A DNA stretch of 64,000 bases, from contig JBMORT010000006.1 in the NCBI GenBank assembly GCA_049319825.1, positions 166,340 through 230,339 of the forward strand, read 5' to 3'. The notes under the pieces are model-generated. The model worked only from the letters and a program-made list of their open reading frames with translations. It was not told where the DNA came from and did no database searches. This DNA comes from Patescibacteria group bacterium (GTDB taxonomy: Bacteria; Patescibacteriota; Patescibacteriia; UBA11705; DATKZF01). This document shows positions 14,388 to 48,109 of the stretch, piece after piece (the stretch's first letter is position 1; the number at the start of each line of letters is the position of its first letter). A program made the position numbers and the translations under genes.

Positions 14388-14393
14388 ATTATT

Positions 14394-15422: not shown

Positions 15423-15423
15423 T

Positions 15424-16533: not shown

Positions 16534-16640
16534 AAATTGGAATAGGGTGTGTATAATTTTCTTTACATGACTCTTGACAAAAAATTCTACATCGCTTACA
16601 ATGGAGGTGTAAGTATTATTAAATAATTTCCATTAACACT

Positions 16641-16853
16641 ATGGATAGAAAACGAAAAGCAGACCACGAAAAAATAAAGAAAATTTTAGAAAAACGTGGT
16701 TATAAAAACGGTGAACCACCACGTGGATATGAGGTGCACCACATCAAACCACTTGCAGAAGGCGGAAAGGATACACCTAAAAATATTCGGGTAATAAAAA
16801 TAATAAAACACAAACAAATACACGCTAATCGTAAAGAAAGAAGTAAAATTTAA
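16641..16853 (+). CDS. mini HNH endonuclease (70 aa)
   Basis: The motif EVHHIKPLAEGGKDTPKNIRV...H resembles the HNH core of the upstream gene (HIKP-EGGK-T--N). Confidence 0.6.
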   Translation: MDRKRKADHEKIKKILEKRGYKNGEPPRGYEVHHIKPLAEGGKDTPKNIRVIKIIKHKQIHANRKERSKI

Positions 16854-16855
16854 TT

Positions 16856-17623
16856 ATGTTTGGAAAATTTATCCAACATCAACGTACCAAGCGAAATATG
16901 ACACAGGAATATCTTGCGTCAGAGCTTGATATGTCTCGTCCCACTTATTTACAGATTGAACGCGGGGAGCGAGAGCTTACGATTTCCGAAGCAAAAAAGC
17001 TGGCGGCTCTTTTTGACATGCCGCTTGAAAATTTTCTTGCTGCCAGAGAACCAAAACGAAGTGTTGCCATTGAAAAAGAATCGGTAAAAAAAACTGAAGA
17101 CTTGCAGATTCGCGTTACAGAAAAAAACCTTGATAAATTCAAGCAGGTTTTGCTTTATGTTTTGAATAAGGTTGGTGGCAAGCCAAATGTTGGTGAAACA
17201 GTTTTGCATAAACTTCTTTATTTTATCGATTTTGACTACTACGAGAAGTTTGAAGAAAACTTAATGGGTGCAACTTATATCAAAAATCATCACGGTCCCA
17301 CTTCTATCGAGCTCGGCACAATTATAGAGGAAATGCAGACGCAGGGTGAGTTAGAAGCTGTAAAGAGTCAGTATTTTAAGTATTTACAAAAAAAGTATCT
17401 GCCGCGAAAACGTCCTAATCTCGATATTCTTTCCGCGCGAGAAATTGAGCACATTGATGATGTACTTGCTCGTCTTTCAGACAAAAATGCTGCGGAAATA
17501 GAAAATTATTCACACGAGGACATTCCTTGGAAATCTGCGCAGGACGGCAAGCCGCTTTCTTACGAGAGCGTTTTCTACCGCGACGAGCGATACTCCGTAA
17601 GAAACTATGACGATAAACTTTAA
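16856..17623 (+). CDS. HTH-XRE + Panacea/SocA (DUF4065) domain protein, PanA-type antitoxin candidate
   Basis: N-terminal XRE HTH (MTQEYLASELDMSRPTYLQIERGER). Panacea-like core VGGKPNVGETVLHKLLYFIDFDYYEKFEENLMGATYIKNHHGP. Starts 3 nt after the mini-HNH stop. Confidence 0.65.
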   Translation: MFGKFIQHQRTKRNMTQEYLASELDMSRPTYLQIERGERELTISEAKKLAALFDMPLENFLAAREPKRSVAIEKESVKKTEDLQIRVTEKNLDKFKQVLLYVLNKVGGKPNVGETVLHKLLYFIDFDYYEKFEENLMGATYIKNHHGPTSIELGTIIEEMQTQGELEAVKSQYFKYLQKKYLPRKRPNLDILSAREIEHIDDVLARLSDKNAAEIENYSHEDIPWKSAQDGKPLSYESVFYRDERYSVRNYDDKL

Positions 17624-29931: not shown

Positions 29932-30192
29932 GCAGTAGGCAATAGGCAGTAGGCGATAGAGTTTGTTGTATAAAAAATTTGACCATCAAATTTATGTTGG
30001 AAGCGTTTAAAAAAATGACGTTTTTAACTGTTTAAGCCGAGCGCGCGCTCGGTTTTTTTTTGAACTTGATAAAAGGCGCGGTTTTGTGTAAGATACCTTG
30101 ATTTGGCCAAGACTTCGATTTAATATGGTTAAATTCAGTGTTGGCCAAATCGGCTCGCACCTTGACAATCGATCATGGAGAGGAGTTAGGCC

Positions 30193-33100
30193 ATGAGAAG
30201 ATTGGTCGCCGGCACAGTGATCCTGCTTTTCATTATTTTGAAGAGTTCCCAGAGTTTGGCCGGTTATGATTTTATCGTTGTTGAACCAGCCGCAGCGGAA
30301 TATTCTCCCGGAGAAGAAATTACTTTCCATTTCGCATTTTACTTTATCCAAATGGGCATCACTTGCGCCACCATCAGCGGCAGTGTCTATAATGAAAGCG
30401 GCGGTCTGATCGACGCGGCCACGCAGGGGATCGCCAGCGATGGCTCGTATCATCTTTACGCGTACGCGAACGCTCCCAGTGGTTACGGAGTGCACATTTT
30501 TGAAATGATGTTTCATGTTCAGCTTTGTCCGGGATGGCAATTTTCAGACGGTAGCACCAGTATTTCTTACTCCGAGGACATTTTGATTGAGATCGCTGGT
30601 TCAGCAACCAATTCGGACGTCGAGAGCGATATTGATTTGTATGATGAAGATATTTGGGAAGAAATCGGTGACGGAGACGATGTCTTTGAGGTCGGAGAAA
30701 GAATTTGTTTTGAAATCGAGCTGGAAAACGACAGCAGTTCCGATTCGTATGACATCGATGCGGTTTACACCTACAGCAGCGGAGCTGACGTGGATTGGAA
30801 TGATGATGACTGCGGCGTTGATTTCACGTTATCGGAATTGGATGAAGATTGGGTCGATGATGATTTTTGTTTCACTGCCCGGGAGTTGGGCAGAGTCAAG
30901 GTGGAGATTTATGTGAAATTGGAAGGTGCCGCCACTTTGTATAACGTTGATTCTTTTCATATTGATATCGTCTGTCAGCCATCCTGGAGCTGCACGAACT
31001 GGTCAAGCTGCGCCAATTGCTTTCAGACGCGCGTTTGCACCGATTCGCATAATTGCGGCACGACCAGCGGTAAGCCGGCCGAATCCCAGTCTTGCGGTAT
31101 TTTTCCCAATCAGTGTGATCCGTTCGGCAGTCTCTGCGACGGCAACGTGGCCTACGACTGCTTGTACGACAGCTACAATTGCTACTATTACAAATCCAAT
31201 CAGCAGACCTGTCTTTACGGCTGCAGCTTCGGTGAATGCGCGTCCGCGACCGAATGCGCATACACAGATTGTTACTTGGATGATTTGTGGTGCCATAACA
31301 GCGCCGGCATTCGAACGTATATCGGGCAGGACTGCGGAGCACTGCAAGAAGTTGAATATGAATTCATCTGCGATGGAATCGAGCGTTGGGCAATCGCGCA
31401 TGAAACCAACAGAGGTTGTCAATCTGGTCAATGCTATGTCAGTTTGCATGACAGTTCGTATTACTTGGAAACATGTTCCCAGCAATGCGCGAATGGTCAA
31501 TGCGTAAATCCCGATTGTTTGTACACCGCTTGCCTGAATAATGATTTATGGTGCTACAATTCTGCCAATCAGCCGCAGTATCTGGCTGAAGATTGCGGCA
31601 ATGCCAGCGGCACGTCCACGATCAGCGCCGTGTACTGCTCGGAGACCGGAGATTTGGTGAAGCTGAAGAGTTACTCCACCCGCTGTTGCGCCAATGGCGC
31701 TTGCGGCTGGTGCTTTCAATATAATTACGAGCAGGTGCAGGTGGAATGCCCAGCCGGTTGCGATCCGGACACTGATCAATGTTTGGCCTGCGTGCCGGCA
31801 TTCGATTGCTATCAGGCGCAGGTTTGTTTGTCGGATGATACTCAGGAGTACCAGTGCGACGACTTGCTTTGCGGCCAGCCGTCTTACACGGAAATCAGGC
31901 CATGCCAGTATTGCGATGAAAAGTGCGCGCTGGGAGAAAGCTACTGCGCCGGAAATACGGCGTTCACTTGCGTGTCGGTCGGCGGCTGTGATACTGATTG
32001 GCAGTCCGCCTTCTGCGGTTACAGCGAAGAAATTGAGGGAGAGCCGTATTGCAGCGGAAACAATGTAATGAAAGACACTACTGCTACCGATCGCTGGTGC
32101 GCTGACGGAGCGTGCCAACAAGAAATTTCGATCAACGCTGAGGCAATCGCTGATTGCGGTGTTGATACCTCTTTTTCAACCATGCCGTATTGCTTGAACG
32201 ATGACGTTGTATTTGATGACGTCGAAATTTTCAGAGGTTGCTCGAGCGGATCATGCTATGAAGATGAAACCAGCGAATCGCAGATTTTAATGGCATGTGG
32301 CGAGGATACGACAATCAGCGGTGTTAAGTCATGCAACAGCGATGGGAACGCAACTTTTGGCGATATTCACATTGTCAGGGGTTGTGAAAACGCTCAATGC
32401 CACGAGTACCCGATTCAGGATTATTTTGCGGAATTTGTTTGCCCCTGTGGCTGTGATGACGGCGATTGTCTGCCGTGCGACGGCTGCGACTATTTAGACT
32501 GCGGAACCAGCGAGTTCCACTCAACTCTTCCTTACTGCCATCAAGGCAAGGTTGTGTTTGATAATATCAATATCGAGCGCGGCTGCGCTGATTCAGCATG
32601 TTTCGCTGTTGACAACAGCCAGTATTATCAATTGCTCGATGATTGCGGCACCGATGAAATCAATACCAATGTCGCTTTTTGCCGCGATGGTAATATCGCG
32701 GTGGGAAATTCCGGCTATATTCGAGGCTGCAGCGATGCCCAGTGCTATGAAGAATCGATTGACTATGTGGCTTTTATTATCTTGTGCGAATGCGGATGTT
32801 CCGAAGCAGCTTGCCTGCCGTGTTATGAAGCATGCGTCAGTTTGCGTTGCAATCCGGAAGACGGCAATGTCTGGTGCTATGACAGCTGGGGACAGGCGAC
32901 ATCTCTGGAAACAGATTGCGCTCAGAATGAGGTTTGCCTTGGCGGAATTGAATACGATGCCGAGTGCGTTGAACTAATTGCCCCGGTTTGTGATCAGTTT
33001 GGCGTTGGTATTGATCAAACAATCTATCGAGCAGCAGACCGTTTTCCTCTGACTCGAACATTAACCTTGGAGCTTAAGGGATTTTTTGTATATGATGTAG

Positions 33101-35655
33101 ATCATTTTGAATGGTTTATTGATGGAGGCTTAATTCCTGACATTACCTTTGTGCCAGATTACGAGTTTACTTTTAATGACTACGGACAATACGTGTATTT
33201 TGTGCGCATTGTCCATAAAGAAAATAGTTGCATAACCGAGGGCTTCATCAATATTAATGTTGTTAAGCCTTATGAGTTGTTTGACATTTTTGATCTGGAT
33301 GTTATTTTTGAAAATCAAGAGCAAGGCAAGCATATTATTTCACTTGAGCTTCCTTCCCATGATTTCGTGGTATTTAAGGTTAACGGCGGGGCAGGACCGT
33401 TTACTTTGAGCTGTTTTTACGACATGGGCAATCCTGACCCAATCGAAATTTATGCAGCGAAAGATCTAGGAAATGTCTATTATTTATTCAATCAGGGCAC
33501 GCACATCCCTTGTTATTCTGGAAACACATTGTATTTAGATGAGGGCATTTGGCATGTCCGGATTGAAACTGGGGAAGTGATAAATAATATCATCACTTTG
33601 GAATCAAGCTTTCATCTTGACCATGAGCGTTATGCAACACAAAAATACCGAAAAGGACGGTTTTATTGGGGAGCGCTTTCTGGTGTGTGTGAGAATGATT
33701 CCGATGTCTTTTGCACCACTGGAGATATTTTAAATTTGCCAGCGGGTTTTATTCCTGTAGTAGGCGATTCAATTGATGTTTTTCAGGCAATTATAAATAT
33801 GGGCATTTACGCCCAAAAGGAGCTGGATTTAAATATTATTCGGTTGAATTCTGATTCAGAAAAGCAAGAATTTTTGCAGGCCGGAGCGTTTGCCTCAATT
33901 GCCGCGCTGACTCCGTTTATCACTAACAAAATGGTCAGGTTTGTGGCTGATGGCAATTTGTTAAATCTGGTAAAAAATGAAAAAGGTACCAGAGGAGCAA
34001 TTGACTATATCAGCTATCAGCAAGTGGCTGCCAGAGGAAGCTTGAGAATTGACAATAATGAGTTTCATCAGGATATTTTATCAAGCGAATACAATTCGTT
34101 CTCCCTGAAATTAAAAACATTTTCTGACGGAGTTGATCCGCTGTTCAAATTTGATGAAAGCTTAAAAGAAATTATGGATGAAATTGATGAGGCTGTTATT
34201 GATGTAAAACAACAAATTAAAAACAGCAATGACTTGCCAAGGATCCAGGAACACATTTTGCAGGAGTTTGGTGAAGAAGTGGACATTGATCATGTTCCAG
34301 CCACTGATTTAATCAGATATTATGATACAGATCCTGAACTAACACTTTCAGGAACTTTAAGCGAAGATGTTGCATATATCAGAGAAGGCATTGCCTCGCT
34401 TTTTGCCAGGGCAACTGCTAATCAAGCTGACATGATATTAAAGCCAGCTGGAGCTTTTGAGCGGATTGACAATGTTTATGTGCTTTTTCCCTCTAAATCA
34501 AATCTTAATCAGGTATTTCCATTGCAGGTAGGCATTAAAACGCCTTATGACCCGGTAATCGTAAGAAAAGAACATGCCGGCAGATACATTGATCTTGAAA
34601 CAGGATTTGTATATGTGGAAGGCATTAATACCTTTATTACAAAAGAGATTGATTTTGTTGCAGAGATTGAAGGCACGAATGAAATAATTGCTTTTGAATT
34701 CAAATGGGGGCGTTCAGATGATAAACAGGCAGCAAGAACTTTTGCGACTTTAAAGAAGTTATTCCCTGATAAAAAGATAAATGTAATAAACAATGCTAAT
34801 TTAAGAGATCCCACATTAACTGGAAACAGATTATGGGCAGAATCAAATATTGATTCTGATTATGTGATATATACAAATGATCCGAGTTCAATCACTCCCA
34901 CCGCAGACTTTCAAATAAATACGCCCTTTGAAATTTTCTGCGAGAATGGGCAAAATCTTGTGCCGATTCGGATTACAGCCACCAAACTGATCGACAGCTT
35001 GTGGTGCGTTAATCAGGAGAGTCAACAGCGGTACGATCAGTTTTACGAAAAAGAAGGGGAATATGTGTTGGCGGTCGCGCCAGCCGATCCGTACGGGATG
35101 GTCGCGTACAGCTGCCAAGCCACCAGCGCCGACGGCGATCAAGCGTCGGACGTGGTCACATTAATCGGATCGAAAATTCATATTCCTGAAGATGAAGACG
35201 CCAATCACAGGTTTGTCATGGCGATCGCCCCGCGATTTCCGTTAGCCGGGGAAAAAATCGAGATTGAGATTTACTCGCTCGATAAAAGCTGTTTAACCGA
35301 TGTCGATTGTCAGATTAGCGGCGCCGCTATCAGCGATAAAAGAATGAAAGTCAGACTTAAAGTGGATGATATCGAATTTCAGCATGATGGCCAGGTCACT
35401 TATGACTTCTTGGATTGCCGCGAGTATGATTTCATGTTCAATATGATCAAATCCGGACCGAATATTGTTTCCTGCACCGGCCGGTTCCTGGACGGATATT
35501 CGTTGACGCTGGAAGAAGAGGTGAATGTTCCTGTCGATCAAATCCAGCGTGTTCATAAAAGTTCTTGCCAAGTCGGGCAAGGCGTTGGCCAGCCGCTCTG
35601 GCTGACCTTGCTGGCGCTGTGGCTTTTGCCCCGGCGCCGAAAGTCCAAAATCTAA
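30193..35655 (+). CDS. giant (1820 aa) secreted Cys-rich repeat protein with C-terminal sorting-signal-like tail
   Basis: Signal peptide MRRLVAGTVILLFIILKSSQSLAG. There is an acidic region, about 700 aa of tandem Cys-rich modules (recurring ...CG.D....C......RGC..AQC...), a Cys-poor aromatic-rich region and a C-terminal tail ...CQVGQGVGQPLWLTLLALWLLPRRRKSKI. A strong RBS GGAGAGGAG precedes it and terminator 35664-35691 follows it. Confidence 0.85.
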   Translation: MRRLVAGTVILLFIILKSSQSLAGYDFIVVEPAAAEYSPGEEITFHFAFYFIQMGITCATISGSVYNESGGLIDAATQGIASDGSYHLYAYANAPSGYGVHIFEMMFHVQLCPGWQFSDGSTSISYSEDILIEIAGSATNSDVESDIDLYDEDIWEEIGDGDDVFEVGERICFEIELENDSSSDSYDIDAVYTYSSGADVDWNDDDCGVDFTLSELDEDWVDDDFCFTARELGRVKVEIYVKLEGAATLYNVDSFHIDIVCQPSWSCTNWSSCANCFQTRVCTDSHNCGTTSGKPAESQSCGIFPNQCDPFGSLCDGNVAYDCLYDSYNCYYYKSNQQTCLYGCSFGECASATECAYTDCYLDDLWCHNSAGIRTYIGQDCGALQEVEYEFICDGIERWAIAHETNRGCQSGQCYVSLHDSSYYLETCSQQCANGQCVNPDCLYTACLNNDLWCYNSANQPQYLAEDCGNASGTSTISAVYCSETGDLVKLKSYSTRCCANGACGWCFQYNYEQVQVECPAGCDPDTDQCLACVPAFDCYQAQVCLSDDTQEYQCDDLLCGQPSYTEIRPCQYCDEKCALGESYCAGNTAFTCVSVGGCDTDWQSAFCGYSEEIEGEPYCSGNNVMKDTTATDRWCADGACQQEISINAEAIADCGVDTSFSTMPYCLNDDVVFDDVEIFRGCSSGSCYEDETSESQILMACGEDTTISGVKSCNSDGNATFGDIHIVRGCENAQCHEYPIQDYFAEFVCPCGCDDGDCLPCDGCDYLDCGTSEFHSTLPYCHQGKVVFDNINIERGCADSACFAVDNSQYYQLLDDCGTDEINTNVAFCRDGNIAVGNSGYIRGCSDAQCYEESIDYVAFIILCECGCSEAACLPCYEACVSLRCNPEDGNVWCYDSWGQATSLETDCAQNEVCLGGIEYDAECVELIAPVCDQFGVGIDQTIYRAADRFPLTRTLTLELKGFFVYDVDHFEWFIDGGLIPDITFVPDYEFTFNDYGQYVYFVRIVHKENSCITEGFININVVKPYELFDIFDLDVIFENQEQGKHIISLELPSHDFVVFKVNGGAGPFTLSCFYDMGNPDPIEIYAAKDLGNVYYLFNQGTHIPCYSGNTLYLDEGIWHVRIETGEVINNIITLESSFHLDHERYATQKYRKGRFYWGALSGVCENDSDVFCTTGDILNLPAGFIPVVGDSIDVFQAIINMGIYAQKELDLNIIRLNSDSEKQEFLQAGAFASIAALTPFITNKMVRFVADGNLLNLVKNEKGTRGAIDYISYQQVAARGSLRIDNNEFHQDILSSEYNSFSLKLKTFSDGVDPLFKFDESLKEIMDEIDEAVIDVKQQIKNSNDLPRIQEHILQEFGEEVDIDHVPATDLIRYYDTDPELTLSGTLSEDVAYIREGIASLFARATANQADMILKPAGAFERIDNVYVLFPSKSNLNQVFPLQVGIKTPYDPVIVRKEHAGRYIDLETGFVYVEGINTFITKEIDFVAEIEGTNEIIAFEFKWGRSDDKQAARTFATLKKLFPDKKINVINNANLRDPTLTGNRLWAESNIDSDYVIYTNDPSSITPTADFQINTPFEIFCENGQNLVPIRITATKLIDSLWCVNQESQQRYDQFYEKEGEYVLAVAPADPYGMVAYSCQATSADGDQASDVVTLIGSKIHIPEDEDANHRFVMAIAPRFPLAGEKIEIEIYSLDKSCLTDVDCQISGAAISDKRMKVRLKVDDIEFQHDGQVTYDFLDCREYDFMFNMIKSGPNIVSCTGRFLDGYSLTLEEEVNVPVDQIQRVHKSSCQVGQGVGQPLWLTLLALWLLPRRRKSKI

Positions 35656-35663
35656 AGTAACTT

Positions 35664-35691
35664 AACCAAGAATCATATTCTTGGTTTTTTA
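35664..35691 (+). terminator. rho-independent terminator after the giant Cys-rich gene
   Basis: Hairpin AACCAAGAAT-CAT-ATTCTTGGTT followed by TTTTTTATT. Confidence 0.6.
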
Positions 35692-39676: not shown

Positions 39677-42600
39677 ATGCTTTCTACAGTTTTTAAAATT
39701 AAAATTTTGAAAAAAAGTTTTTATCGATTTAAAAAGATAATATTTGTAATGTTGTCGTCTTTTATCGTTTTTTTTGCGTCTTTTTTGCAATTTGACATTA
39801 ATTCAGCCATGGCTGCCGATTCCGGATTTCAAAATCCCACGGCCAATGCGGCCGTGACCAGCGGCGCCGGAGACAATAACGGTTATCAGACAAGCCCCAC
39901 CAATGCTTACGCTGACGGAGGAGGAACGGCCATTGACTCAAACAGCGGCTCGAACACCAATGATACTTGCGCCAGCGCCGGAGCGGACAAGCACATTTGG
40001 AGCAATTTTAATTTCAATATACCGCTCGGTTCGAGCATTGACGGCATCGAGCTGCGTCAGGATTTATCGGTGGACAGTCTCAGCGATAGTCCTTTTACAT
40101 GCGTTGCTCTGTCGTGGGACGGCGGAACAACTTGGACTGCCTATAAAATCGCGTCTTTAAGCACCACCTCCGAAACGACATACACCTTTGGGAATGGAAC
40201 TGACAATTGGGGCAGATCGTGGAGTGGGGGAGAATTAAGTAACGCCAATTTTAGAGTGATGATCGCCAATGGAGATACCAATAACGCCAGATCCAGACGG
40301 GATTTTTCTCTTGATTGGATTGCTCCAAAAATTTATTATACTCCACCGACCCTGAATCAATCTGGCTATCGCCTATTTAATAATGCCGATTCCGCCAATG
40401 TGGGCAGTCCGTTGGCCGCGCTTAATTCGGCAGCTCAATTATCTTCGGGAAATGATAATTTCAGGTTGAGGCTGCTGTTGCATGACAGCGGGGTTAATTT
40501 GCCTCTGGCCGGTGATAATTTTAAACTGCAATATGTCGATAAAGGCGTGGGTACTTGCGCCGCTCCCAGTGGAGGCACTCCGGCCTCATACACTGATGTC
40601 ACCGCCGCGACAGCGATTGCTTACAGCAATAACCCGACACCGGCTGACGGCAGCGCTTTAATTGCCAATGCCAATGATCCCAGCCATGGTGCTGACGCGG
40701 TTATCAATCAGACATACGAAGAATTGAATAATTTTACAAATTCCCAAGCTCCGGTCGCGGTTGGTCAGGATGGCCTGTGGGATTTTTCTTTAAAGGATAA
40801 TACCGCGCCGGACGATAAAACATATTGTTTCCGAGTGGTGAAATCAGATGGATCTTTATTAAACGCATATTCGGTTTATCCTGAAATAATGACCGCTGAA
40901 GGCCCGCCCGTGTTAATGAGCGTCGTTGCCAGCGATCCGGACAATTGGGACAGCGTTCTCAGCAATTGGGATAGGCTGACTTTGCTTTTTAATAAAAGCA
41001 CCAATGCTCCGCAGGCCGGAACCAAGACCCAAATTGACGGCTTGATTAATTTTGCCAATCCGCTGGGTGCGAATTATTCAGGCATTTGGCAGACAACTAA
41101 TTTTATCGATGATACGTTGCGAATCACGGTTATCAGCGCCCTAGGCGGCAGTTTAAATATCGGCAATTTGATTTCAATAATCGCGGACGGCACTGAAGAT
41201 TTGAAAAATCAATCGGAGACATCTCCCGCTTCAACGACTTCCGGGAATGTCACCGGTAATTGGGGCTTCCAAAAGGCCTATTACGCCTGTGATGCGGTCG
41301 ATCAGGTATCATACATGGATGTCAATCTCGGAGCTTCTTCAAAGACCTTGTTGGGTAATCTTGGCGCGGCCAACGTTGAAGCCATTGTTTATGATTACAA
41401 TACGCAGACTTTATACGGCGCCAACGCCGGTCAATTGGGCACAATCAACCAAAGCACCGGTGCTTTTTCCGCCTTGCCGAATCCCATCGGCTCCGGCAAC
41501 GGCTCTCTCGGGGTTTTGGCTTTCAATGATGTTGACGGTCTGGCATTTGACCCTTGGACCAGCGTTTTATACGGCACGGTCAGGCGTGATCCGGGCAAGG
41601 ATTTATTGATAAAAATCAATCCGGCTACCGGCGCCAGAATCGCGAATGCATTCGGTACCGGAGTGGATTATGTGGTCATTGATGAAACGGGGGTGTTTGA
41701 CGATGTGGATGATATTAGCATCAACCCCCTCGACGATAAAATGTACACCATTGGCAATCAAGGTCATTTAACGGAAGACCAGCTTCTAATCATCAATAAA
41801 TTAACTGGTGCGATCAGTGTTCAGGCGAATTTCGGCATTATTCCCGGTTATGACATTGAAGGCATGGCCTTTTCCAGCGATGGTCGAATGTGGGGGACGC
41901 GCGGCGTGCCCAATGAATTAGTGCAGGTTATTTACAACACCAACCCTCCAACTATTACCGGCAATGTCAGTTTGGCTCCGGGTTGCGGCGATCCGGAAGG
42001 AATAGACTTCCAGATTACTTCTACCAACACGGTTACCGGAAGGGTCTGGGATGATTTGGACACGGACGGCGTTTTGGACGGCGGGGAACCGGGGTTGGCC
42101 AATGTTACCGTACGGTTATACAAAGATTTAAATAGCAATGGACTGGCGGACAGCCTCGATCTTTTAATTCAATCAAAAGTTACCGATGTTAGCGGAAATT
42201 ATACATTCAAATTTTTGGCTCTTGACGATTTTGTTTTGGAAATCGATGATTCTTCTTTGCCTTCCGGCTACGGGCTGACCACGGATAATTTGGAGGTAGC
42301 GGCTTTCACTTCGATGGGGGAGCTTGATGAAAATAATAATTTCGGCGCTGTTGCCGGTTCTGATTGCGACGGCGACGGCATTCCTGATTTTATTCAGGGG
42401 GTCGGAATAAACGATTTCGATGGAGACACGGTAATCGACAGCTGTGATTTGGACGTGGATAATGACGGCATATTGAATGCGATGGAAAGTTCCAATGATC
42501 GGGATGGTGATTCAATTCCAAATTTTAGAGATGTGGATTCGGATAACGACGGCATCCCTGATGCCAGGGAAGCCAATAGCGGCGTTGCGCCGACCGGTTA

Positions 42601-45600
42601 TAATATCAGTTTGGGATATATGACCGGCACGGATACGGACGGTGACGGTTTACTCGATCAGGTGGACAGCCTGCCGGCCGTTCAGTATGGCGCCAGCGCG
42701 TCTACTTTGCCGATACCCAATACCGATTCGGACGCAGTCCGCGATTTTCTTGACGGGGATTCTGATAATGACGGCATTTTAGACATCATCGAAGCCGGCG
42801 GCGCTGACAGCGATGGAGACGGCGAGATAGACAGTTTCACCGATGTCAACGGTGATGGGTATCATGACCCGCTGAATACATCACCGTTACCGTTACCCAA
42901 TACCGATATTTCAGGAAAGCCTAACTATCTTGATTTGGATTCAGACGGGGATGGTCTGCCTGATTTTAGAGAAGGTCAGTCAACGGCCAGTTACCATGTG
43001 CCGCTGATAATAAGTGATGCTGATGGCAACGGTATCATTGACGCTTATGACAAATCAGCGGGCGGGAATCCTATCGTGCCGGTGGATACAGACAGCGATG
43101 GCATTCCGGATTATCGCGATTTGGACACCGATAATGACAGTCTTACGGATATCAGTATCGGCGAGGGACACGCCAGCGCCACTTTGGTCGGAGCGGATAC
43201 CGATTCGGATGGTATTGATAACGGTTTTGATACCAATAATTCTCCCTCATATTATTTTTTAAATAATACCGCGGTGACCGATAATCCGCCGCCAAATACT
43301 TTCGGCACTTCAGAGTATAACTGGCGCGAGTTTGACGCCGTGCCCTCAGCTGATTTATCTTTGGATAAATTGGTAGACAATAGCGCGCCCAATGTCGGAG
43401 ACACCATTACCTATACCATCACCGTTTCCAATGCCGGGCCGAATAACGCCACCAATGTATCAGTCGTTGATTTATTGCCGGCCGGAGTGACATATTCGAG
43501 CGCGACGCCTTCTCAGGGCAGTTACAATAATATTTCCGGAGTATGGACTGTTGGAACGATTAATAACGGATCGACCGCCAGTTTGCAGATTTCAGCCACG
43601 GTGAATGTCGGAACCGGCAATTCAACAATATCAAATTCGGCTCAGGTTTCAGCGTCTGATCAGGCAGATCCCGATTCGACTCCGAATAACAATATGCCGC
43701 TCGAAGATGATCAAGACAGTGATGACATCGACGTTCAGGCGGCCGATTTATCTTTGGTTAAGATTGTCGATAATGTCACGCCAAATGTTGGGGATATTGT
43801 GAAATACACGATAACCGTTTCCAATGGCGGTCCGGATACGGCCACAAATGCGGTGGTCAAGGATATTTTGCCGGTTGGTGTTACTTATTCCAGTGATAAT
43901 CCGTCGCAAGGAAGTTATAATTCAGGTACGGGCCTATGGACGATTGGCACAATAAATAATGGTGCTAATGCTGTTTTGGAAATCAATGCGGATGTTGATA
44001 CCGGAACGGGCGGCACTACTATTGATAATACCGCTGAAGTATATTCCGTTGATCAAGAAGATCCTGATTCGACCCCAGATAATAATGTCCCTGCCGAAGA
44101 TGACCAGTCGAGCGTTTCAATTACGGTCGAGTCGGCCGATGTCGCCATTACCAAAACGGACGCGGCAGATCCGGTGACCTTGGGCAATAACATTCAATAC
44201 GATGTGACAGTCACCAATAACGGTCCGTCGGACGCGACCAATGTTGATGTGACCGACACATTGCCGGCGGGGGTGACGTATGTCAGCGCCACGCCAAGTC
44301 AGGGAAGTTGTTCGGAATTGGCCGGAACAGTGACGTGTAATTTGAATACCATCAATAATGGCAATAGCGCGACCATCACCATAATCGTCACGCCAACCTC
44401 CAGTGGAAGTTTTACCAATAATATTTCAGTGACGGCCACGGAAAGCGATCCGACGCCGGGCAATAATTCAGATAGCGAAGATACGACAGTCGGAGACGTT
44501 GCTGATTTGTCTTTGACCAAAACTGTCGATATTTCAAATCCAAACGTGGGGGACATGATTACCTATACTATTACCGTTTCCAATGCCGGCGCGGGAAATG
44601 CGACCGGAGTTTCCGTCAAAGATATTTTACCGGCTGGCGTTACGTATTCGAGCGACACTCCTTCTCAGGGTACTTATAATTCGGTTACCGGTGTTTGGAC
44701 ATTGGGCAGTATCGCTAACGGCGCCAGCGCTATCTTGCAGATCAGCGCCATTGTGGATGCAGGCTCTGCCGGAAGCAGCATTGCCAATATTGCTCAAGTA
44801 TCAGCGTCAGACCAGCCCGATCCTGATTCTACCCCAAATAACAATGCTCCGGCCGAAGATGATCAGGACAGCGCTTCCATTACCGTGCAATCAGCTGATT
44901 TGTCTTTAACAAAAACTGTTGATAATGCCGCGCCAAATGAGGGAGATACCATTCAATACACAATTATTCTAAATAATAGTGGACCGGACAATGCGGAAAA
45001 TGTTTCCGTGAAAGATTTGTTGCCGGTCGGAGTGACATATTCTTTTGATATTCCTTCTCAGGGAACATACGATTCAATCACCGGCATTTGGAACATCGGT
45101 AATGTTATTGGTTTAGCCAGCGCCACGCTTCAAATAAGCGCCACAGTCGATATCGGCTCAGCTGGAATTCCCATTGTTAATACAGCGGAAGTGATTGCCA
45201 GCGATCAGGAAGATCCTGATTCGACTCCGAATAATGATGTTCCGGCCGAAGACGATCAAGACAGCGTCATTATAAATTCCAGCGGCGCGGATTTGGAATT
45301 AACCAAGACAGACAGCATTGATCCGATCTACCTGGGGTCAAATATCCTTTATAATATTGCCGTTCTAAATAATGGACCGGCAGACGCCACCGGCGTGATC
45401 GCCACTGACAGCTTACCGGCCGGAGTGACATATGTCAGCGCCACTCCGAGTCAGGGAGCCTGCGCGGAAGCCGCGGGGATGATTACATGCAATTTGAATA
45501 ATATCAGCAATGGCAGCAGTGCGACGATTGCCATTACGGTTATACCGTTGTCTGACGGGATTTATGCGAATAGCGCTTCAGTGTCAGCTTCGGAATCAGA

Positions 45601-48109
45601 TCCGCTGCCCGCCAATAACAGCGATAATGAAAATACGACGGTCGATCCGGTCAGTGATTTATCATTGACAAAGATCATTGATAATAATAATCCAAGTATT
45701 GGAAATTCGATTAAGTATACTTTAACTCTATTAAATTCCGGTCCCAGTCAAGCGACTAATGTGTTTATTAAAGATTTATTGCCGGCGGGCCTGACTTACG
45801 TCGGTAATACACCGTCTCAGGGAACATATGATTCACTGACAGGCGAATGGACGGTCGGAGTCGTTAATAGCGGCGCCAGCGCCACTTTGGAAGTGAGCGC
45901 GACGGTTAACAGCGGCACGGCCGGGCAAGTGATTAATAATACCGGAGAAGTTATTGCCTGCGATCAACATGATTCTGACTCGACTCCCAATAATAATCTG
46001 CCGGCTGAAGATGACCAAGCGAGCGTTAGTTTAACCGTAAAATCCGGTGGCGGCGGCGGTGGCGGTGGCGGTGGCGGATCTGTTCCTCCGGCAGCCTGCG
46101 TGGCGATTTCCGGCGCGAATTCATCATTAAAAATCAATAATGGCGCTGAAAAAACGGATAGTTTAAGCGTACTGTTAAACTTGTCTTATTCCACCGCTAC
46201 TTCGGTGATGTTTAGCGAGAATTCCGATTTTACCGGCGCTTCTTCTCAGCCGGTATCGGGCAGTTTGCCTTTTTCACTCAGTTCGGGAGCGGGAGAAAAA
46301 AAGGTTTACGCCAAATTATCGAATCAGTGTTCGAGTGTTACTGTTGCTGATACCATTTTATATGAATTGCCCGAATCCGAGGAATGCATCGTTAATTGTG
46401 ACCAAATTACTTATAAACTTTATATTGTCAATCCAGACGGTACCGAGAGGCACGCGGGAACCAATTATGTTCAGCAGGAGCAAGTCGCGGACGGCATTGT
46501 ATTATATAAATTCGAAGACAAAGGCTTGGATTTTGATTATAACGACGTCTTTGTTCAGGTAGACGACCGCAATTGTTCCGGTGTAAAGTTTAGCGTCACC
46601 CGAGAGCTGGAAGCAAGCTGGCACCATCAGATAGGAGTCAATATTTTTTACCAAGGGAAGCTGTCAAAACATATTTTACTCTGGTCGGATTCTCACACTT
46701 CATTCGGAAATGAAAGGACGTATGATTTTTCAACCGACCAGAGTCTCTGCGAAGAGTCAATCGAGCCGATCGAAGAGCCGGAGATCGAGCCTGAACCGGA
46801 AGTGCCAGTCGAGTGCGTCGTTGACTGCGACAAAGTCAAGTTTGATCTATTCATTGTCAATCCCGACGGCACCGAGAGACATTCTGGTACCAGGTTTGTC
46901 GAGGAAGAAAAGGTTTCCGACGGTGTGATATTATATAAATTCGAAGATAAAGGCGAAGATTTTGATTACAATGATGTATTCGTGCAGGTGGACCGTCGCG
47001 ATTGCGCCAATGTGATTTTCAGCGTTACCAAAGAGCTCGAAGCCAGCTGGCATCATCAAATAAAAGTCAGATTATCCGGCAATGGAATAGTCGGCGGCGC
47101 CATCACTCTGTGGCCCGATTCCCACATGTCGTTTGGCAATGAGCGGTCGCTCGATGTTTCCGCCGATCAGAGTCTTTGCCAGCAGTGCGTAACTGATTGC
47201 CAAAGAGTGACTTACGATTTATACATTGTTAATCCTGACGGTACCGAGAGGCGCATGAACAGCCGTTATGCTCAGATTGAAGATCAGGGCAATGGCGTGA
47301 TTTTGGTGAAATTTGAAGACAAGGGAAATGACTTCGATTACAATGACGTTTTAATAAAAGTTGACAAGAGCACTTGTGAAATTATCAAAGTGACTTCGCT
47401 TCAGCTGGAAGCCGGTTGGCATCATCAGATAAAAATCAAGCTGCTGTATGACGGGATCGAGCGAAATGACGTTTTGCTTTGGGCTGATTCGCATCTGTCA
47501 GTGGATCAGTCGAAAGAGGTGAATTTGACCGATTACTCTCGGCTCTGTGAAGTTGATTTGCTGGATAAAGTGGAACAGGCCGCGGTTACAGTTTTTGAGC
47601 ATATTAATTTTTTGGGCAGGTCTCAGACTTTCGTCGCCGGTCAAAAAGTGCCTGAGCTGACTGTTTTTTCTTTCAATAATTTAATATCATCCGTGAAAAT
47701 CGTAGGCAATGCGGCGGTAGATTTTTTCACTGAGGCGTTGTACTCTGGCAGATCAGAGCGTTTTAGCCAAGACGACTTTGATTTAAGAAATAATTCTATC
47801 GGAAACGATACGGTGACGTCGCTTCAAGTGTCTTTACGCGCTCAAAATATTCCATCCGCATCGGCCGCAGCGCTCCGCTGCGGCGGAAATGTTGTCTTCA
47901 GCGAAATGACAGCCGGCGATCAGGGATCGAATGTTGTCTCGCTTCAGGAATTGTTGAAATGTTTGGGATTTTTTCCCCAAGGTCAGCCAGCTACCGGATA
48001 TTTCGGACCGGTTACGGAGAATGCGCTTAAAAATTTTCAGCTGTCAAATGGGATTGAGCCATCCGGGTATTTGGATCAGGCGACCCTGAGCGCGATCAAT
48101 GATTTATAA
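39677..48109 (+). CDS. giant (2810 aa) multi-domain surface protein / putative adhesin
   Basis: N-terminal signal/anchor helix. Aspartate-rich Ca-binding DxDxDG(I/L)xD repeats are TSP3-like (about aa 880-1200). About 8 tandem DUF11 repeats follow (LSLDKLVDN...VTYSS..PSQG...G.W..G). Then come a poly-Gly linker (GGGGGGGGGGGS), 3 tandem DUF4114-like repeats (VNPDGTER...FEDKG.DFDYNDV...WHHQI) and a beta/gamma-crystallin-like domain (VFEHINFLGRSQTF). The C-terminus is a PG_binding_1 domain (LQELLKCLGF...GYFGPVTENALKNFQ). Confidence 0.9.
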   Translation: MLSTVFKIKILKKSFYRFKKIIFVMLSSFIVFFASFLQFDINSAMAADSGFQNPTANAAVTSGAGDNNGYQTSPTNAYADGGGTAIDSNSGSNTNDTCASAGADKHIWSNFNFNIPLGSSIDGIELRQDLSVDSLSDSPFTCVALSWDGGTTWTAYKIASLSTTSETTYTFGNGTDNWGRSWSGGELSNANFRVMIANGDTNNARSRRDFSLDWIAPKIYYTPPTLNQSGYRLFNNADSANVGSPLAALNSAAQLSSGNDNFRLRLLLHDSGVNLPLAGDNFKLQYVDKGVGTCAAPSGGTPASYTDVTAATAIAYSNNPTPADGSALIANANDPSHGADAVINQTYEELNNFTNSQAPVAVGQDGLWDFSLKDNTAPDDKTYCFRVVKSDGSLLNAYSVYPEIMTAEGPPVLMSVVASDPDNWDSVLSNWDRLTLLFNKSTNAPQAGTKTQIDGLINFANPLGANYSGIWQTTNFIDDTLRITVISALGGSLNIGNLISIIADGTEDLKNQSETSPASTTSGNVTGNWGFQKAYYACDAVDQVSYMDVNLGASSKTLLGNLGAANVEAIVYDYNTQTLYGANAGQLGTINQSTGAFSALPNPIGSGNGSLGVLAFNDVDGLAFDPWTSVLYGTVRRDPGKDLLIKINPATGARIANAFGTGVDYVVIDETGVFDDVDDISINPLDDKMYTIGNQGHLTEDQLLIINKLTGAISVQANFGIIPGYDIEGMAFSSDGRMWGTRGVPNELVQVIYNTNPPTITGNVSLAPGCGDPEGIDFQITSTNTVTGRVWDDLDTDGVLDGGEPGLANVTVRLYKDLNSNGLADSLDLLIQSKVTDVSGNYTFKFLALDDFVLEIDDSSLPSGYGLTTDNLEVAAFTSMGELDENNNFGAVAGSDCDGDGIPDFIQGVGINDFDGDTVIDSCDLDVDNDGILNAMESSNDRDGDSIPNFRDVDSDNDGIPDAREANSGVAPTGYNISLGYMTGTDTDGDGLLDQVDSLPAVQYGASASTLPIPNTDSDAVRDFLDGDSDNDGILDIIEAGGADSDGDGEIDSFTDVNGDGYHDPLNTSPLPLPNTDISGKPNYLDLDSDGDGLPDFREGQSTASYHVPLIISDADGNGIIDAYDKSAGGNPIVPVDTDSDGIPDYRDLDTDNDSLTDISIGEGHASATLVGADTDSDGIDNGFDTNNSPSYYFLNNTAVTDNPPPNTFGTSEYNWREFDAVPSADLSLDKLVDNSAPNVGDTITYTITVSNAGPNNATNVSVVDLLPAGVTYSSATPSQGSYNNISGVWTVGTINNGSTASLQISATVNVGTGNSTISNSAQVSASDQADPDSTPNNNMPLEDDQDSDDIDVQAADLSLVKIVDNVTPNVGDIVKYTITVSNGGPDTATNAVVKDILPVGVTYSSDNPSQGSYNSGTGLWTIGTINNGANAVLEINADVDTGTGGTTIDNTAEVYSVDQEDPDSTPDNNVPAEDDQSSVSITVESADVAITKTDAADPVTLGNNIQYDVTVTNNGPSDATNVDVTDTLPAGVTYVSATPSQGSCSELAGTVTCNLNTINNGNSATITIIVTPTSSGSFTNNISVTATESDPTPGNNSDSEDTTVGDVADLSLTKTVDISNPNVGDMITYTITVSNAGAGNATGVSVKDILPAGVTYSSDTPSQGTYNSVTGVWTLGSIANGASAILQISAIVDAGSAGSSIANIAQVSASDQPDPDSTPNNNAPAEDDQDSASITVQSADLSLTKTVDNAAPNEGDTIQYTIILNNSGPDNAENVSVKDLLPVGVTYSFDIPSQGTYDSITGIWNIGNVIGLASATLQISATVDIGSAGIPIVNTAEVIASDQEDPDSTPNNDVPAEDDQDSVIINSSGADLELTKTDSIDPIYLGSNILYNIAVLNNGPADATGVIATDSLPAGVTYVSATPSQGACAEAAGMITCNLNNISNGSSATIAITVIPLSDGIYANSASVSASESDPLPANNSDNENTTVDPVSDLSLTKIIDNNNPSIGNSIKYTLTLLNSGPSQATNVFIKDLLPAGLTYVGNTPSQGTYDSLTGEWTVGVVNSGASATLEVSATVNSGTAGQVINNTGEVIACDQHDSDSTPNNNLPAEDDQASVSLTVKSGGGGGGGGGGGSVPPAACVAISGANSSLKINNGAEKTDSLSVLLNLSYSTATSVMFSENSDFTGASSQPVSGSLPFSLSSGAGEKKVYAKLSNQCSSVTVADTILYELPESEECIVNCDQITYKLYIVNPDGTERHAGTNYVQQEQVADGIVLYKFEDKGLDFDYNDVFVQVDDRNCSGVKFSVTRELEASWHHQIGVNIFYQGKLSKHILLWSDSHTSFGNERTYDFSTDQSLCEESIEPIEEPEIEPEPEVPVECVVDCDKVKFDLFIVNPDGTERHSGTRFVEEEKVSDGVILYKFEDKGEDFDYNDVFVQVDRRDCANVIFSVTKELEASWHHQIKVRLSGNGIVGGAITLWPDSHMSFGNERSLDVSADQSLCQQCVTDCQRVTYDLYIVNPDGTERRMNSRYAQIEDQGNGVILVKFEDKGNDFDYNDVLIKVDKSTCEIIKVTSLQLEAGWHHQIKIKLLYDGIERNDVLLWADSHLSVDQSKEVNLTDYSRLCEVDLLDKVEQAAVTVFEHINFLGRSQTFVAGQKVPELTVFSFNNLISSVKIVGNAAVDFFTEALYSGRSERFSQDDFDLRNNSIGNDTVTSLQVSLRAQNIPSASAAALRCGGNVVFSEMTAGDQGSNVVSLQELLKCLGFFPQGQPATGYFGPVTENALKNFQLSNGIEPSGYLDQATLSAINDL
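43330..46030 (+). repeat. DNA-level tandem array of about 8 DUF11-repeat coding units (~375-390 bp each) inside the giant gene
   Basis: Recurring nucleotide blocks such as GATTTATCTTTG..., CCGGATTCGACTCC/CCTGATTCGACTCC and GAAGATGATCAAG are visible by eye. Boundaries are approximate. Confidence 0.6.
46370..47560 (+). repeat. 3 tandem DUF4114-like coding repeats (~390-420 bp) inside the giant gene
   Basis: TGTGACCAAATTACTTATAAACTTTATATTGTCAATCCAGACGGTACCGAGAGGCAC recurs as ...GTCAATCCCGACGGCACCGAGAGACAT and ...GTTAATCCTGACGGTACCGAGAGGCGC. Confidence 0.65.

What the first reader, a model, noticed from the sequence alone, without database searches (positions are those of the whole stretch)
30193..35655. 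1820-aa secreted protein with ~700 aa of novel tandem Cys-rich modules and a C-terminal tripartite sorting-signal-like tail
After a signal peptide and an acidic region there are about 12 tandem modules of ~50-60 aa. Their cysteine framework is regular (...CG.D.......C......(I/V).RGC..(A/S).C...) and matches no domain I recognise.

The protein ends in ...SSCQVGQGVGQP-LWLTLLALWLL-PRRRKSKI. That is a Cys/Gly-rich motif, a hydrophobic helix and a basic tail. This layout is the hallmark of C-terminal protein-sorting signals processed by sortase-like enzymes (LPXTG, GlyGly-CTERM/rhombosortase, MYXO-CTERM, PEP-CTERM). None of the canonical motifs is present.

In a reduced-genome organism a protein of this size is a major investment, probably host- or surface-interaction related.
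Basis: partly seen in the sequence, partly recalled or inferred. Interest (0 to 1): 0.7.

Follow-up and report, generated by a model that had tools for sequence, protein, structure and literature searches.

The report
Giant cysteine-rich surface protein, Patescibacteria
This is a real 1820-residue exported protein of an uncultured Patescibacteria bacterium, from a family of only seven known sequences, with a stalk of unclassified disulfide-rich modules and a cysteine-containing C-terminal anchor that resembles, but does not qualify as, the MYXO-CTERM class of sorting signals.

Summary
The ORF, signal peptide, acidic region, cysteine framework and tail are all present as described. The module count needs correcting. 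Residues 261-935 hold 85 Cys in about 19 small modules of five kinds. Only seven are the described CG..C..RGC..C unit (47-48 aa).

Exhaustive searches find seven family members. All end in an invariant Cys, 7-12 small polar residues, a short hydrophobic stretch and a basic tail. These tails give only sub-threshold hits, and only to Cys-type sorting-signal models (MYXO-CTERM, JDVT-CTERM). Changing Cys to Ser weakens or removes the hits; ordinary membrane tails give none.

No second protein carries the tail and no sorting enzyme appears in any DNA I could reach. The gene is monocistronic. Processing therefore remains unproven.

All six full-length relatives have a central HExxH...E module. In this protein a roughly 720-residue segment with no homologue anywhere occupies that position, at a syntenic locus.

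Verdict: a new variant of known kinds (large Cys-rich surface proteins of candidate phyla radiation bacteria; Cys-type C-terminal anchors). Moderate interest.

The parts
30034..30094 (+). Terminator-like hairpin of the upstream gene (30034-30055), then a promoter-like site (30066-30094, TTGATA-17-TAAGAT)
   Evidence: Consensus scan. A pattern match only.
30177..30185 (+). Shine-Dalgarno-like GGAGAGGAG, 7 nt before the ATG at 30193
   Evidence: Read directly from the sequence.
30193..35655 (+). Whole ORF, 1820 aa plus stop codon
   Evidence: identical to P0001 in NCBI and Logan.
30193..30261 (+). Signal peptide, residues 1-23 (MRR / LVAGTVILLFIIL / KSSQSLA)
   Evidence: Sequence layout. Hydrophobic window at residues 4-22. 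N-terminal hydrophobic segments are also present in all the full-length relatives, though in P0009 it lies below the hydropathy threshold used. Inferred; no signal-peptide predictor was available.
30262..30972 (+). N-terminal acidic domain, residues 24-260. Shared only with the syntenic orthologue P0002
   Evidence: 36% identity to P0002 over residues 1-382. D+E counts. Absent from P0004, P0007, P0008 and P0009.
30973..32997 (+). Cys-rich region, residues 261-935: 85 Cys in about 19 modules, in the order A1 B1 C1 D1 E C2 D2 E A2 B2 D3 D4 D5 E D6 D7 E C3 plus a 4-Cys end piece
   Evidence: Module map, profile search, C-D-E units in relatives.
30973..31113 (+). A1 module (CxPSWSCxxWSxCxxxxQTRxCTDSxNCGTTSGKPAExQSC). 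A second, weaker copy A2 lies at 31780-31911
   Evidence: 53% identity over 81 aa to the otherwise unrelated 1191-aa protein P0003. The resemblance to thrombospondin type-1 repeats is my recollection. Pfam gives no hit.
31255..31785 (+). Two consecutive C-D-E units (residues 355-531), used for the structure model
31330..31473 (+). D1 module (residues 380-427)
   Evidence: Profile E 2.7e-17.
31591..31737 (+). D2 module (residues 467-515, 6 Cys)
   Evidence: Profile E 3.2e-13.
32011..32433 (+). D3, D4 and D5 modules in tandem (residues 607-747)
   Evidence: Profile E 2.6e-19, 1.2e-21 and 2.5e-18.
32497..32781 (+). D6 and D7 modules in tandem (residues 769-863)
   Evidence: Profile E 2.1e-21 and 1.4e-17.
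32998..35163 (+). Orphan central segment, residues 936-1657. No homologue anywhere. It occupies the place of the HExxH...E module of the relatives
   Evidence: phmmer of residues 621-1820 against 1.84 billion representatives gave no hit on this part. BLAST and hhalign against the relatives' centres were negative. No Pfam, NCBIfam, PHROGs or PDB hit. The single-sequence AlphaFold model failed, pLDDT 36.8.
34642..34731 (+). Candidate PD-(D/E)xK-like motif (EIDFVAEIEGTNEIIAFEFKWG; D1486, E1499, K1501)
   Evidence: Sequence pattern plus a weak Pfam DUF234 hit, E=0.1, 13.5 bits against a cut-off of 22.5. A lead only.
35164..35556 (+). Conserved C-terminal domain, residues 1658-1788
   Evidence: 30% identity to P0002. 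Hit to P0005 over residues 1663-1817, E 2.2e-6. Alignments.
35557..35652 (+). Tripartite tail, residues 1789-1820: Cys1792 (35566-35568), polar spacer QVGQGVGQP, hydrophobic LWLTLLALWLL (35596-35628), basic RRRKSKI (35632-35652)
   Evidence: Cys invariant in 7 of 7 relatives. MYXO-CTERM TIGR03901 15.2-15.6 bits against a cut-off of 20. Controls.
35664..35686 (+). Terminator-like hairpin (10-bp stem, then a T-run) 9 nt after the stop codon
   Evidence: a pattern match. Together with the upstream signals it suggests a monocistronic unit.

Best explanation
The gene encodes a Sec-exported giant cell-surface protein of a Patescibacteria (candidate phyla radiation, CPR) bacterium. It belongs to a very small family of seven known sequences.

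Shown:
- An N-terminal signal-peptide-like segment.
- An acidic N-terminal domain.
- A 675-residue region of small Cys-rich modules of five types. The only two units modelled are predicted to be all beta-hairpin.
- A C-terminal conserved domain.
- A tail made of an invariant Cys, a polar spacer, a short hydrophobic segment and a basic end.

Inferred mechanism:
- After export the tail acts as a stop-transfer element. The basic end stays in the cytoplasm and the whole protein stays on the outer face of the cytoplasmic membrane.
- The disulfide-stabilised modules form a long, rigid, protease-resistant stalk. It projects the N-terminal domain away from the cell for attachment or recognition.
- The central segment is the working module nearest the membrane.

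All six full-length relatives have a putative gluzincin-type metalloprotease motif (HExxH...E) at that central position. In this protein, at a syntenic locus, an unrelated orphan segment has replaced it. The family therefore behaves as a fixed scaffold with an exchangeable centre.

The tail belongs by architecture to the Cys-type tripartite class (MYXO-CTERM, JDVT-CTERM). I put the chance that the Cys is modified and the helix removed by a CPBP-type protease at about 0.35. I put the chance that the helix is kept as a permanent anchor at about 0.45. The confidence below is for the surface-anchored scaffold reading as a whole.
For: ORF and composition.

Family size and architecture. These are two word-based searches, one exhaustive phmmer over 1.84 billion representatives and one metagenome scan. 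Together they give seven sequences.

Modules.

Model of two C-D-E units: all beta, pLDDT 77.7.

Tail:
- The Cys is invariant in 7 of 7 sequences despite about 20% identity in the neighbouring domain.
- Tail identity is at least that of the preceding 150 residues in 8 of 8 pairs.
- The only NCBIfam hits that reach the Cys are to Cys-type C-terminal models: MYXO-CTERM 15.6 bits against a cut-off of 20, GC_trans_RRR 15.3 against 15.85, JDVT-CTERM 17.2 against 27. Weaker hits to other C-terminal models cover only the hydrophobic-basic part.
- Cys-to-Ser lowers or removes these hits. Three ordinary C-terminal membrane tails from the window and a shuffled tail give none.

Synteny with the P0002 locus (DUF6938 gene, giant gene, M16 peptidase, TIM, TPR).

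HExxH and a downstream invariant Glu in the centre of five full-length relatives (the sixth, P0005, is a fragment lacking that region), absent here.

Own promoter-like site, ribosome-binding site and terminator.

Large Cys-rich extracellular proteins, proposed to act in attachment and variable between strains, are already described for CPR bacteria (PMC4736985).
Against: - No experiment and no localisation predictor was available. Surface location is inferred from the signal peptide, the Cys content and the tail.
- The hydrophobic core of the tail is only 11 residues, short for a permanent bilayer-spanning helix. This favours a transient, processed anchor.
- Stalk rigidity and disulfide pairing are inferred. 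Model coordinates could not be inspected.
- The function of the N-terminal domain and of the orphan centre is unknown. The single-sequence model failed.
- The metalloprotease reading of the relatives' centre rests on a motif only, with no Pfam or PDB match.
Confidence: 0.6

Rival explanations
1. The tail is a true, processed sorting signal, a Patescibacteria version of the Cys-type C-terminal systems. Cys1792 is lipidated at the outer membrane face. A CPBP/Rce1-like intramembrane protease (a myxosortase analogue) encoded elsewhere in the genome removes the helix and basic tail. The protein is left lipid-anchored.
For: - The tripartite layout with an invariant Cys is kept across very divergent relatives.
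- The hydrophobic core is short, 11-16 residues.
- The tail is more conserved than the adjacent domain.
- The sub-threshold hits that depend on the Cys are all to Cys-type C-terminal models.
- The mechanism is established for MYXO-CTERM and MrtX (PMC11980579; 10.1101/2023.06.07.544157).
Against: - No hit reaches a curated cut-off.
- All tails come from homologous proteins, so common descent alone could explain their similarity.
- No unrelated protein carries the tail in 280 kb of window and loci sequence, which includes some overlapping loci.
- Single-target systems such as JDVT-CTERM have the protease next door. Here no CPBP gene lies in the 64-kb window, in the 10 kb reached beyond its downstream end, or within 10 kb in five relatives' loci. 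The gene is monocistronic.
[quoted passage not shown] I did not establish that this organism has either.
Confidence: 0.35
2. The tail is just a permanent C-terminal transmembrane anchor (type I topology). The nearby Cys is conserved for another reason, for example a disulfide with the last domain.
For: - Only one protein per accessible genome region carries the tail, and no sorting enzyme was found (and the Pfam surveys).
- Most of the weak model score comes from the hydrophobic-plus-basic part, which survives Cys-to-Ser at 12.4 bits.
Against: - The strictly hydrophobic run is 11 residues in this protein.
- The Cys and the small-residue spacer are conserved where the neighbouring domain is not.
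- Ordinary membrane tails from the same window do not hit any C-terminal sorting model.
Confidence: 0.45
3. The protein is a polymorphic toxin or contact-dependent effector. The exchangeable centre would be a toxin module, here possibly a PD-(D/E)xK nuclease and in relatives a zinc protease, delivered to a host or competitor cell.
For: - The centre has been replaced by non-homologous sequence at a syntenic locus.
- A D..ExK motif is present with a weak DUF234 hit.
- The stretch FIPVVGDSIDVFQAI resembles pre-toxin motifs. This is my recollection and was not tested.
Against: - The variable module is internal, not C-terminal.
- No candidate immunity gene follows. The next gene is a conserved M16 peptidase in both loci, and the gene is monocistronic.
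- No toxin family hit appears in Pfam, NCBIfam or PHROGs.
Confidence: 0.1

Closest known systems
MYXO-CTERM sorting domain (TIGR03901, TIGR03382) with myxosortase MrtX; prototype substrate TraA of Myxococcus xanthus
   Same: - The tail has the same tripartite layout: a Cys-containing motif, a short hydrophobic helix and an Arg/Lys cluster at the extreme C-terminus.
- The best-scoring NCBIfam model for the window protein's tail is MYXO-CTERM.
- As I recall it, TraA has an N-terminal variable domain, Cys-rich repeats and the tail. That overall plan is the same as here.
- Surface-tethered metallopeptidases with this tail are known (NF038112 gave a weak tail hit to P0009).
   Different: - The score is below the cut-off (15.6 against 20).
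- The motif is SSC here, with no GCGC.
- The organism is a Patescibacteria bacterium, not Myxococcota.
- No multi-protein tail family and no CPBP protease were seen in reachable DNA.
- The Cys-rich modules share no detectable sequence similarity with known Myxococcus Cys-rich repeats (no NCBIfam or Pfam hit).
JDVT-CTERM with MrtJ (a dedicated one-substrate, one-protease pair)
   Same: - It is a Cys-type tripartite tail on what may be the only substrate in the genome.
- The tail of relative P0009 scores 17.2 bits against this model.
   Different: - The cut-off is 27 bits.
- The near-invariant Asp-Pro inside the helix (10.1101/2023.06.07.544157) is absent.
- No adjacent CPBP gene is present in any of six loci.
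Large cysteine-rich extracellular proteins of CPR bacteria (Peribacteria; PMC4736985)
   Same: The size class matches (average 1655 aa there). So do the high Cys content, the signal peptide, the lack of annotation, the proposed attachment role and the variation between related genomes.
   Different: That paper defines a descriptive class, not a homologous family. The C-D-E module set, the HExxH centre and the Cys-type tail are not described there. I did not test sequence relatedness to those proteins.
Eukaryote-type Cys-rich repeats (EGF, furin-like, thrombospondin type-1)
   Same: These are also small disulfide-rich extracellular modules in tandem. The A module has a W..WS.C...Q.R.C pattern that recalls thrombospondin type-1 repeats; this is my recollection.

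Membership tests
MYXO-CTERM (TIGR03901 / TIGR03382) | HMM score at or above the curated cut-off | tested here: not met
   Window tail 15.2-15.6 bits against 20. Best relative P0004 scores 15.3 against 15.85 on TIGR03382.
MYXO-CTERM (TIGR03901 / TIGR03382) | Tripartite C-terminus with an invariant Cys in the signature motif | tested here: met
   Cys conserved in 7 of 7 family members, followed by a polar spacer, a hydrophobic run and a basic end.
MYXO-CTERM (TIGR03901 / TIGR03382) | Tail shared by many otherwise unrelated proteins of one genome | tested here: inconclusive
   No other ORF with the tail in the window, in 10 kb beyond it, or in the relatives' loci (280 kb in all).
MYXO-CTERM (TIGR03901 / TIGR03382) | Cognate CPBP-family myxosortase (MrtX, MrtC or MrtP) in the genome | not testable with these tools
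   No PF02517 hit among window ORFs of 120 aa or more or in neighbouring genes of five loci. Whole genomes could not be read.
JDVT-CTERM / MrtJ | HMM cut-off, the Asp-Pro motif in the helix, and an adjacent CPBP protease gene | tested here: not met
   No hit for the window tail; 17.2 against 27 for P0009. No DP in LWLTLLALWLL. No adjacent protease gene.
LPXTG / sortase | LPXTG-like motif before the helix, and a sortase gene | tested here: not met
   No such motif in the tail. No LPXTG_anchor hit for the native tails. No sortase Pfam hit in the window.
GlyGly-CTERM / rhombosortase and PEP-CTERM / exosortase | GG or PEP signature and a model hit at or above the cut-off | tested here: not met
   No GlyGly-CTERM hit. 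PEP_CTERM scores 11.6-11.9 against 16 for two relatives only, covering just the hydrophobic-basic part. No PEP motif.
Known Cys-rich repeat families (EGF, furin-like, TSP1, Myxococcus Cys-rich repeat) | Sequence-profile or fold match | tested here: not met
Polymorphic toxin systems | Variable toxin at the extreme C-terminus with an adjacent immunity gene | tested here: not met
   The variable segment is internal (residues 936-1657). The downstream gene is a conserved M16 peptidase in both syntenic loci. A terminator-like hairpin follows the stop codon.
PD-(D/E)xK nuclease fold (central segment) | Profile or fold match plus the catalytic D...(D/E)xK | tested here: inconclusive
   Motif D1486-x12-E1499-x-K1501 is present. 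Pfam DUF234 gives only 13.5 bits against 22.5. The structure model is unusable, pLDDT 36.8.
Gluzincin-type metallopeptidase (family centre) | HExxH plus a downstream Glu | tested here: not met
   Present and invariant in P0002, P0004, P0007, P0008 and P0009. No HExxH anywhere in the window protein.

The most novel reading that the evidence does not exclude
Patescibacteria possess their own Cys-type C-terminal sorting system. A giant scaffold protein would be lipidated at a membrane-proximal Cys and released from its helix by a distant CPBP-like protease. This would happen in a cell that I assume, from general knowledge of CPR bacteria, lacks the outer membrane and type II secretion route used by MYXO-CTERM. 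The scaffold would carry an exchangeable central effector: a zinc protease in most lineages and an orphan, possibly nuclease-like, module here. That module would be used at the interface with a host cell.
Probability: 0.15. Interest if true: 0.7.

Novelty: new variant of a known kind. Interest (0 to 1): 0.42.

Why it matters
CPR bacteria are thought to live attached to other cells, and their large unannotated surface proteins are the obvious candidates for that contact.

This family offers three concrete handles:
- A set of disulfide-rich modules with no known sequence family and, for the units modelled, no matching fold.
- A C-terminal anchor that extends the Cys-type sorting-signal architecture to a new phylum and, probably, a new envelope type.
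- An orthologous, syntenic gene pair in which the central third has been swapped for unrelated sequence.

If the tail is processed, it would broaden the reach of CPBP-type sorting proteases. If it is not, this remains one more large Cys-rich CPR surface protein, of a kind already noted in the literature.

Tried and rejected
1. Known Cys-rich families. Pfam and NCBIfam were run on the whole protein and on seven sub-regions at E<=10, and PDB by phmmer. Nothing was found.

3. Identity of the central segment. All attempts failed:
- Exhaustive phmmer.
- PHROGs.
- PDB.
- hhalign against the relatives' centre.
- Single-sequence AlphaFold, pLDDT 36.8.

4. Profile of the relatives' HExxH centre against PDB. 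No hit.

5. More family members. Results by search:
- C-terminal profile search: only P0005.
- GTDB genomes: only the P0002 genome; the window's own MAG is not in that collection.
- Metagenome scan: only copies of P0004, P0007 and P0009 plus one 2-kb Cys-rich fragment.

6. A dedicated sorting enzyme or partner next to the gene. None is present in six loci. The small downstream ORFs of three relatives are unrelated to each other and lack membrane segments, apart from a signal-peptide-like N-terminus in one.

7. Diversity-generating retroelement or recent duplication. There are no DNA repeats in or matching the gene, and the Pfam surveys returned no reverse-transcriptase hit.

8. Cys parity as a test for one free Cys. 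Counts are inconsistent across the family, so this is uninformative.

9. Walking along the contig. This was not possible, because only window-encoded proteins may be looked up. One look-up gave 10 kb downstream. The upstream one returned only a 1.4-kb contig.
Full report
**1. Observation**

The ORF at 30193..35655 (+) is intact and encodes 1820 aa. The identical sequence is recorded from an NCBI MAG labelled 'Patescibacteria group bacterium' (ACOZBH_03150, 365-kb contig) and from an independent Logan assembly. That argues against a private assembly error.

The gene has its own signals:
- the terminator of the upstream gene (30034-30055);
- a promoter-like site (30066-30094);
- a GGAGAGGAG ribosome-binding site 7 nt before the ATG;
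- a 10-bp hairpin plus T-run 9 nt after the stop codon (35664-35686).

It therefore looks monocistronic. These are pattern matches only.

The N-terminus has a classical signal-peptide layout. Residues 101-260 are 29% acidic. 85 of the 103 cysteines lie in residues 261-935.

**2. The Cys-rich region**

A profile built from the copies recovers seven 'D' modules of 47-48 aa with four Cys each (DCG...YC...V...I.RGC..[AS].C). Per-copy E-values run from 3e-13 to 1e-21.

The rest is made of four other module types:
- two 'A' modules;
- two 'B' modules;
- three 'C' modules (C..C...[LV]WC[YH][ND]S);
- CxCGC..xC 'E' linkers.

C-D-E forms an 88-89 aa higher-order unit that recurs in the relatives; P0004 has six in a row. 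The A1 module is 53% identical to a module in an otherwise unrelated 1191-aa protein (P0003). The region is therefore a mosaic of small modules, some shared more widely.

There are no DNA-level repeats, so the duplications are old.

Pfam, NCBIfam and PDB sequence searches of the whole protein and of sub-regions return nothing, even at E<=10.

By these tests the modules are not EGF-, furin- or thrombospondin-like. One caveat applies: the model is of medium confidence and elongated, which lowers structural scores.

**3. How rare the protein is**

Four searches were run:
- A word-indexed search of 5.8 billion clusters found one real homologue, P0002.
- An exhaustive phmmer of residues 621-1820 against 1.84 billion representatives found four other proteins at E<=1e-3.
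- A further search from P0004 added three.
- A metagenome scan added none beyond copies of these, plus a 2-kb fragment carrying D modules.

The family thus has seven known sequences: the window protein, P0002, P0004, P0005 (a fragment), P0007, P0008 and P0009. An eighth protein, P0006, shares only D modules.

**4. The tail**

All seven family members end the same way:
- a Cys preceded by small residues (SSC, NMC, NGC, DGC);
- 7-12 Gly/Ser/Gln/Thr/Asn-rich residues;
- 11-16 hydrophobic residues;
- a Lys/Arg-rich end.

The Cys is invariant although the adjacent domain falls to about 20% identity. Tail identity equals or exceeds that of the preceding 150 residues in 8 of 8 pairs, for example 85% against 59% and 43% against 17.5%. 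Hydrophobic composition inflates such figures somewhat.

Scanned alone against NCBIfam, four of the seven tails give weak hits reaching the Cys only to Cys-type C-terminal models:
- MYXO-CTERM TIGR03901, 15.6 bits (cut-off 20), for the window protein;
- GC_trans_RRR, 15.3 bits (cut-off 15.85), for P0004;
- JDVT-CTERM, 17.2 bits (cut-off 27), for P0009;
- the tail of a MYXO-CTERM-anchored family, for P0002.

Controls:
- Cys-to-Ser drops the window score to 12.4 bits and shortens the match to the hydrophobic-basic part.
- Cys-to-Ser removes the P0004 hit and lowers P0009 to 12.8 bits.
- Three ordinary C-terminal membrane tails from other window proteins hit no C-terminal sorting model.
- A shuffled tail hits nothing.

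The tail is therefore a real look-alike of the Cys-type class, with the Cys contributing about 3-4 bits. It qualifies for none of the curated families.

That class is processed by CPBP/Rce1-like intramembrane proteases (myxosortases), probably after lipidation of the Cys. This was predicted in 10.1101/2023.06.07.544157 and shown for MrtX and TraA in PMC11980579.

**5. Is it a sorting signal?**

The two classical criteria are the same tail on unrelated proteins of one genome, and a cognate enzyme. Neither could be met in the DNA I could reach.

A seven-tail HMM scores 48-56 bits on the family members. The next best ORF scores 6.8 bits, across 280 kb (window, 10 kb downstream of it, and the relatives' loci). 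Simple tail screens agree.

No ORF of 120 aa or more in the window hits sortase, CPBP, rhomboid or exosortase families. None lies within 10 kb of the gene in five relatives' loci or downstream of the window.

Dedicated one-substrate systems such as JDVT-CTERM/MrtJ have the protease adjacent; this gene does not.

Two points favour processing. The strictly hydrophobic run in the window protein is only 11 residues, short for a permanent helix. The Cys sits where the outer membrane face would be.

I rate processing at about 0.35 and a retained anchor at about 0.45.

**6. The centre of the protein**

The P0002 locus is syntenic with the window. Both have a DUF6938 gene, then the giant gene, an M16 peptidase, triosephosphate isomerase and a TPR protein, in that order. 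The two giant genes are therefore orthologues.

They align over residues 1-935 (with fewer D modules in P0002) and over residues 1658-1820. They do not align in between.

P0002, P0004, P0007, P0008 and P0009 share a homologous centre with an invariant HExxH and a Glu 24 residues after its second His. That is a gluzincin-like signature. It has no Pfam or PDB match, and in three of them it is preceded by two or three hydrophobic helices.

The window protein has no HExxH. Its residues 936-1657 show no similarity to that centre by BLAST or hhalign (probability below 1%). They have no homologue among 1.84 billion representatives.

Reading the sequence, the segment starts with beta-rich stretches (936-1155). 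A mainly helical part follows, then an alpha/beta part with a D-x12-ExK motif that weakly hits DUF234 (E=0.1). A degenerate C module lies near residue 1600. The single-sequence structure model was unusable.

The nuclease idea is a lead only. What is shown is that a conserved scaffold carries a non-homologous centre in this lineage.

**7. Mechanism, committed**

- The protein is exported by Sec.
- It is held at the outer face of the cytoplasmic membrane by the C-terminal tail, with the basic end inside the cell.
- The central module and the C-terminal domain sit near the membrane.
- The disulfide-rich beta-hairpin modules form a long stiff stalk.
- The acidic N-terminal domain sits at the distal tip, for contact with another surface.

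This matches the proposal made for large Cys-rich extracellular proteins of CPR bacteria, which also vary between close genomes (PMC4736985). It also parallels my recollection of TraA: a variable N-terminal domain, Cys-rich repeats and MYXO-CTERM.

The steps shown are the sequence features, their conservation, the synteny and the lack of known homologues. Localisation, disulfide formation, stalk function, tail processing and any catalytic activity are inferred.

**8. Rivals**

The rivals considered are a processed Cys-type sorting signal (0.35), a plain anchor (0.45) and a polymorphic toxin (0.1).

The toxin reading is disfavoured for three reasons:
- the variable part is internal;
- no immunity-like gene follows;
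- the gene is monocistronic.

An assembly chimera is unlikely, given two independent assemblies with the same protein and an unbroken frame.

**9. Verdict**

This is a new variant within two known kinds: large Cys-rich CPR surface proteins and Cys-type tripartite C-terminal anchors. Its module types are unclassified and its central segment is an orphan. Interest is moderate at 0.42. The decisive test, a whole-genome search for further tails and for a CPBP protease, is simple but could not be run here.

Noticed in passing
window 57595-58233 (-): A 212-aa protein hits Pfam mTERF (PF02536, E=1.1e-22). It is built on three tandem 105-nt repeats at 57822-58136. To my knowledge mTERF is essentially a eukaryotic organellar family, so a bacterial copy is unusual.
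   Followed up: no
window 13635-17623: A low-GC stretch (0.36-0.38 against about 0.44) carries a defence-type cluster: a Hypoth_Ymh protein, an EcoRI-type adenine methylase, a GmrSD_N+HNH endonuclease and an HTH+SocA/Panacea antitoxin-like protein. It is probably a horizontally acquired island.
   Followed up: no
window 39677-48109 (+): A second giant protein (2810 aa) has seven or more DUF11 repeats, SdrD_B and DUF4114 domains, and a C-terminal PG_binding_1 domain. It is a different way of holding a giant protein at the envelope, and it lacks the Cys-type tail.
   Followed up: partly
window 49884-50957 (+): A 357-aa protein has 27 Cys in CGxDGCGxxCGxC-type repeats followed by a FlgE_D2 domain. 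A 56-nt internal DNA repeat lies at 50259 and 50427.
   Followed up: no
window 349-498 and 1792-1941: Two 150-nt direct repeats, 95% identical, flank an orphan gene for a 261-aa protein with six hydrophobic segments (640-1425) that has no Pfam hit. This may be a small mobile or duplicated cassette.
   Followed up: no
window 52919-56344 (+); L008 17068-20843: A 1141-aa protein has no Pfam hit. Just beyond the window, a gene for a protein of 1357 aa (as called) also has no Pfam hit and runs off the fetched locus. These are more large orphan proteins in the same genome.
   Followed up: no
L001 / L006 (contig CAYPKD010000001.1): The public record holding the orthologue P0002 is titled 'uncultured Gammaproteobacteria bacterium'. 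Its locus is gene-for-gene syntenic with this Patescibacteria window. The taxonomic label of that MAG looks wrong.
   Followed up: partly
L004 8432-9835 (also L010, L011): Directly upstream of the family member P0007 lies a 467-aa membrane-anchored Cys-rich protein. The window has no counterpart.
   Followed up: no
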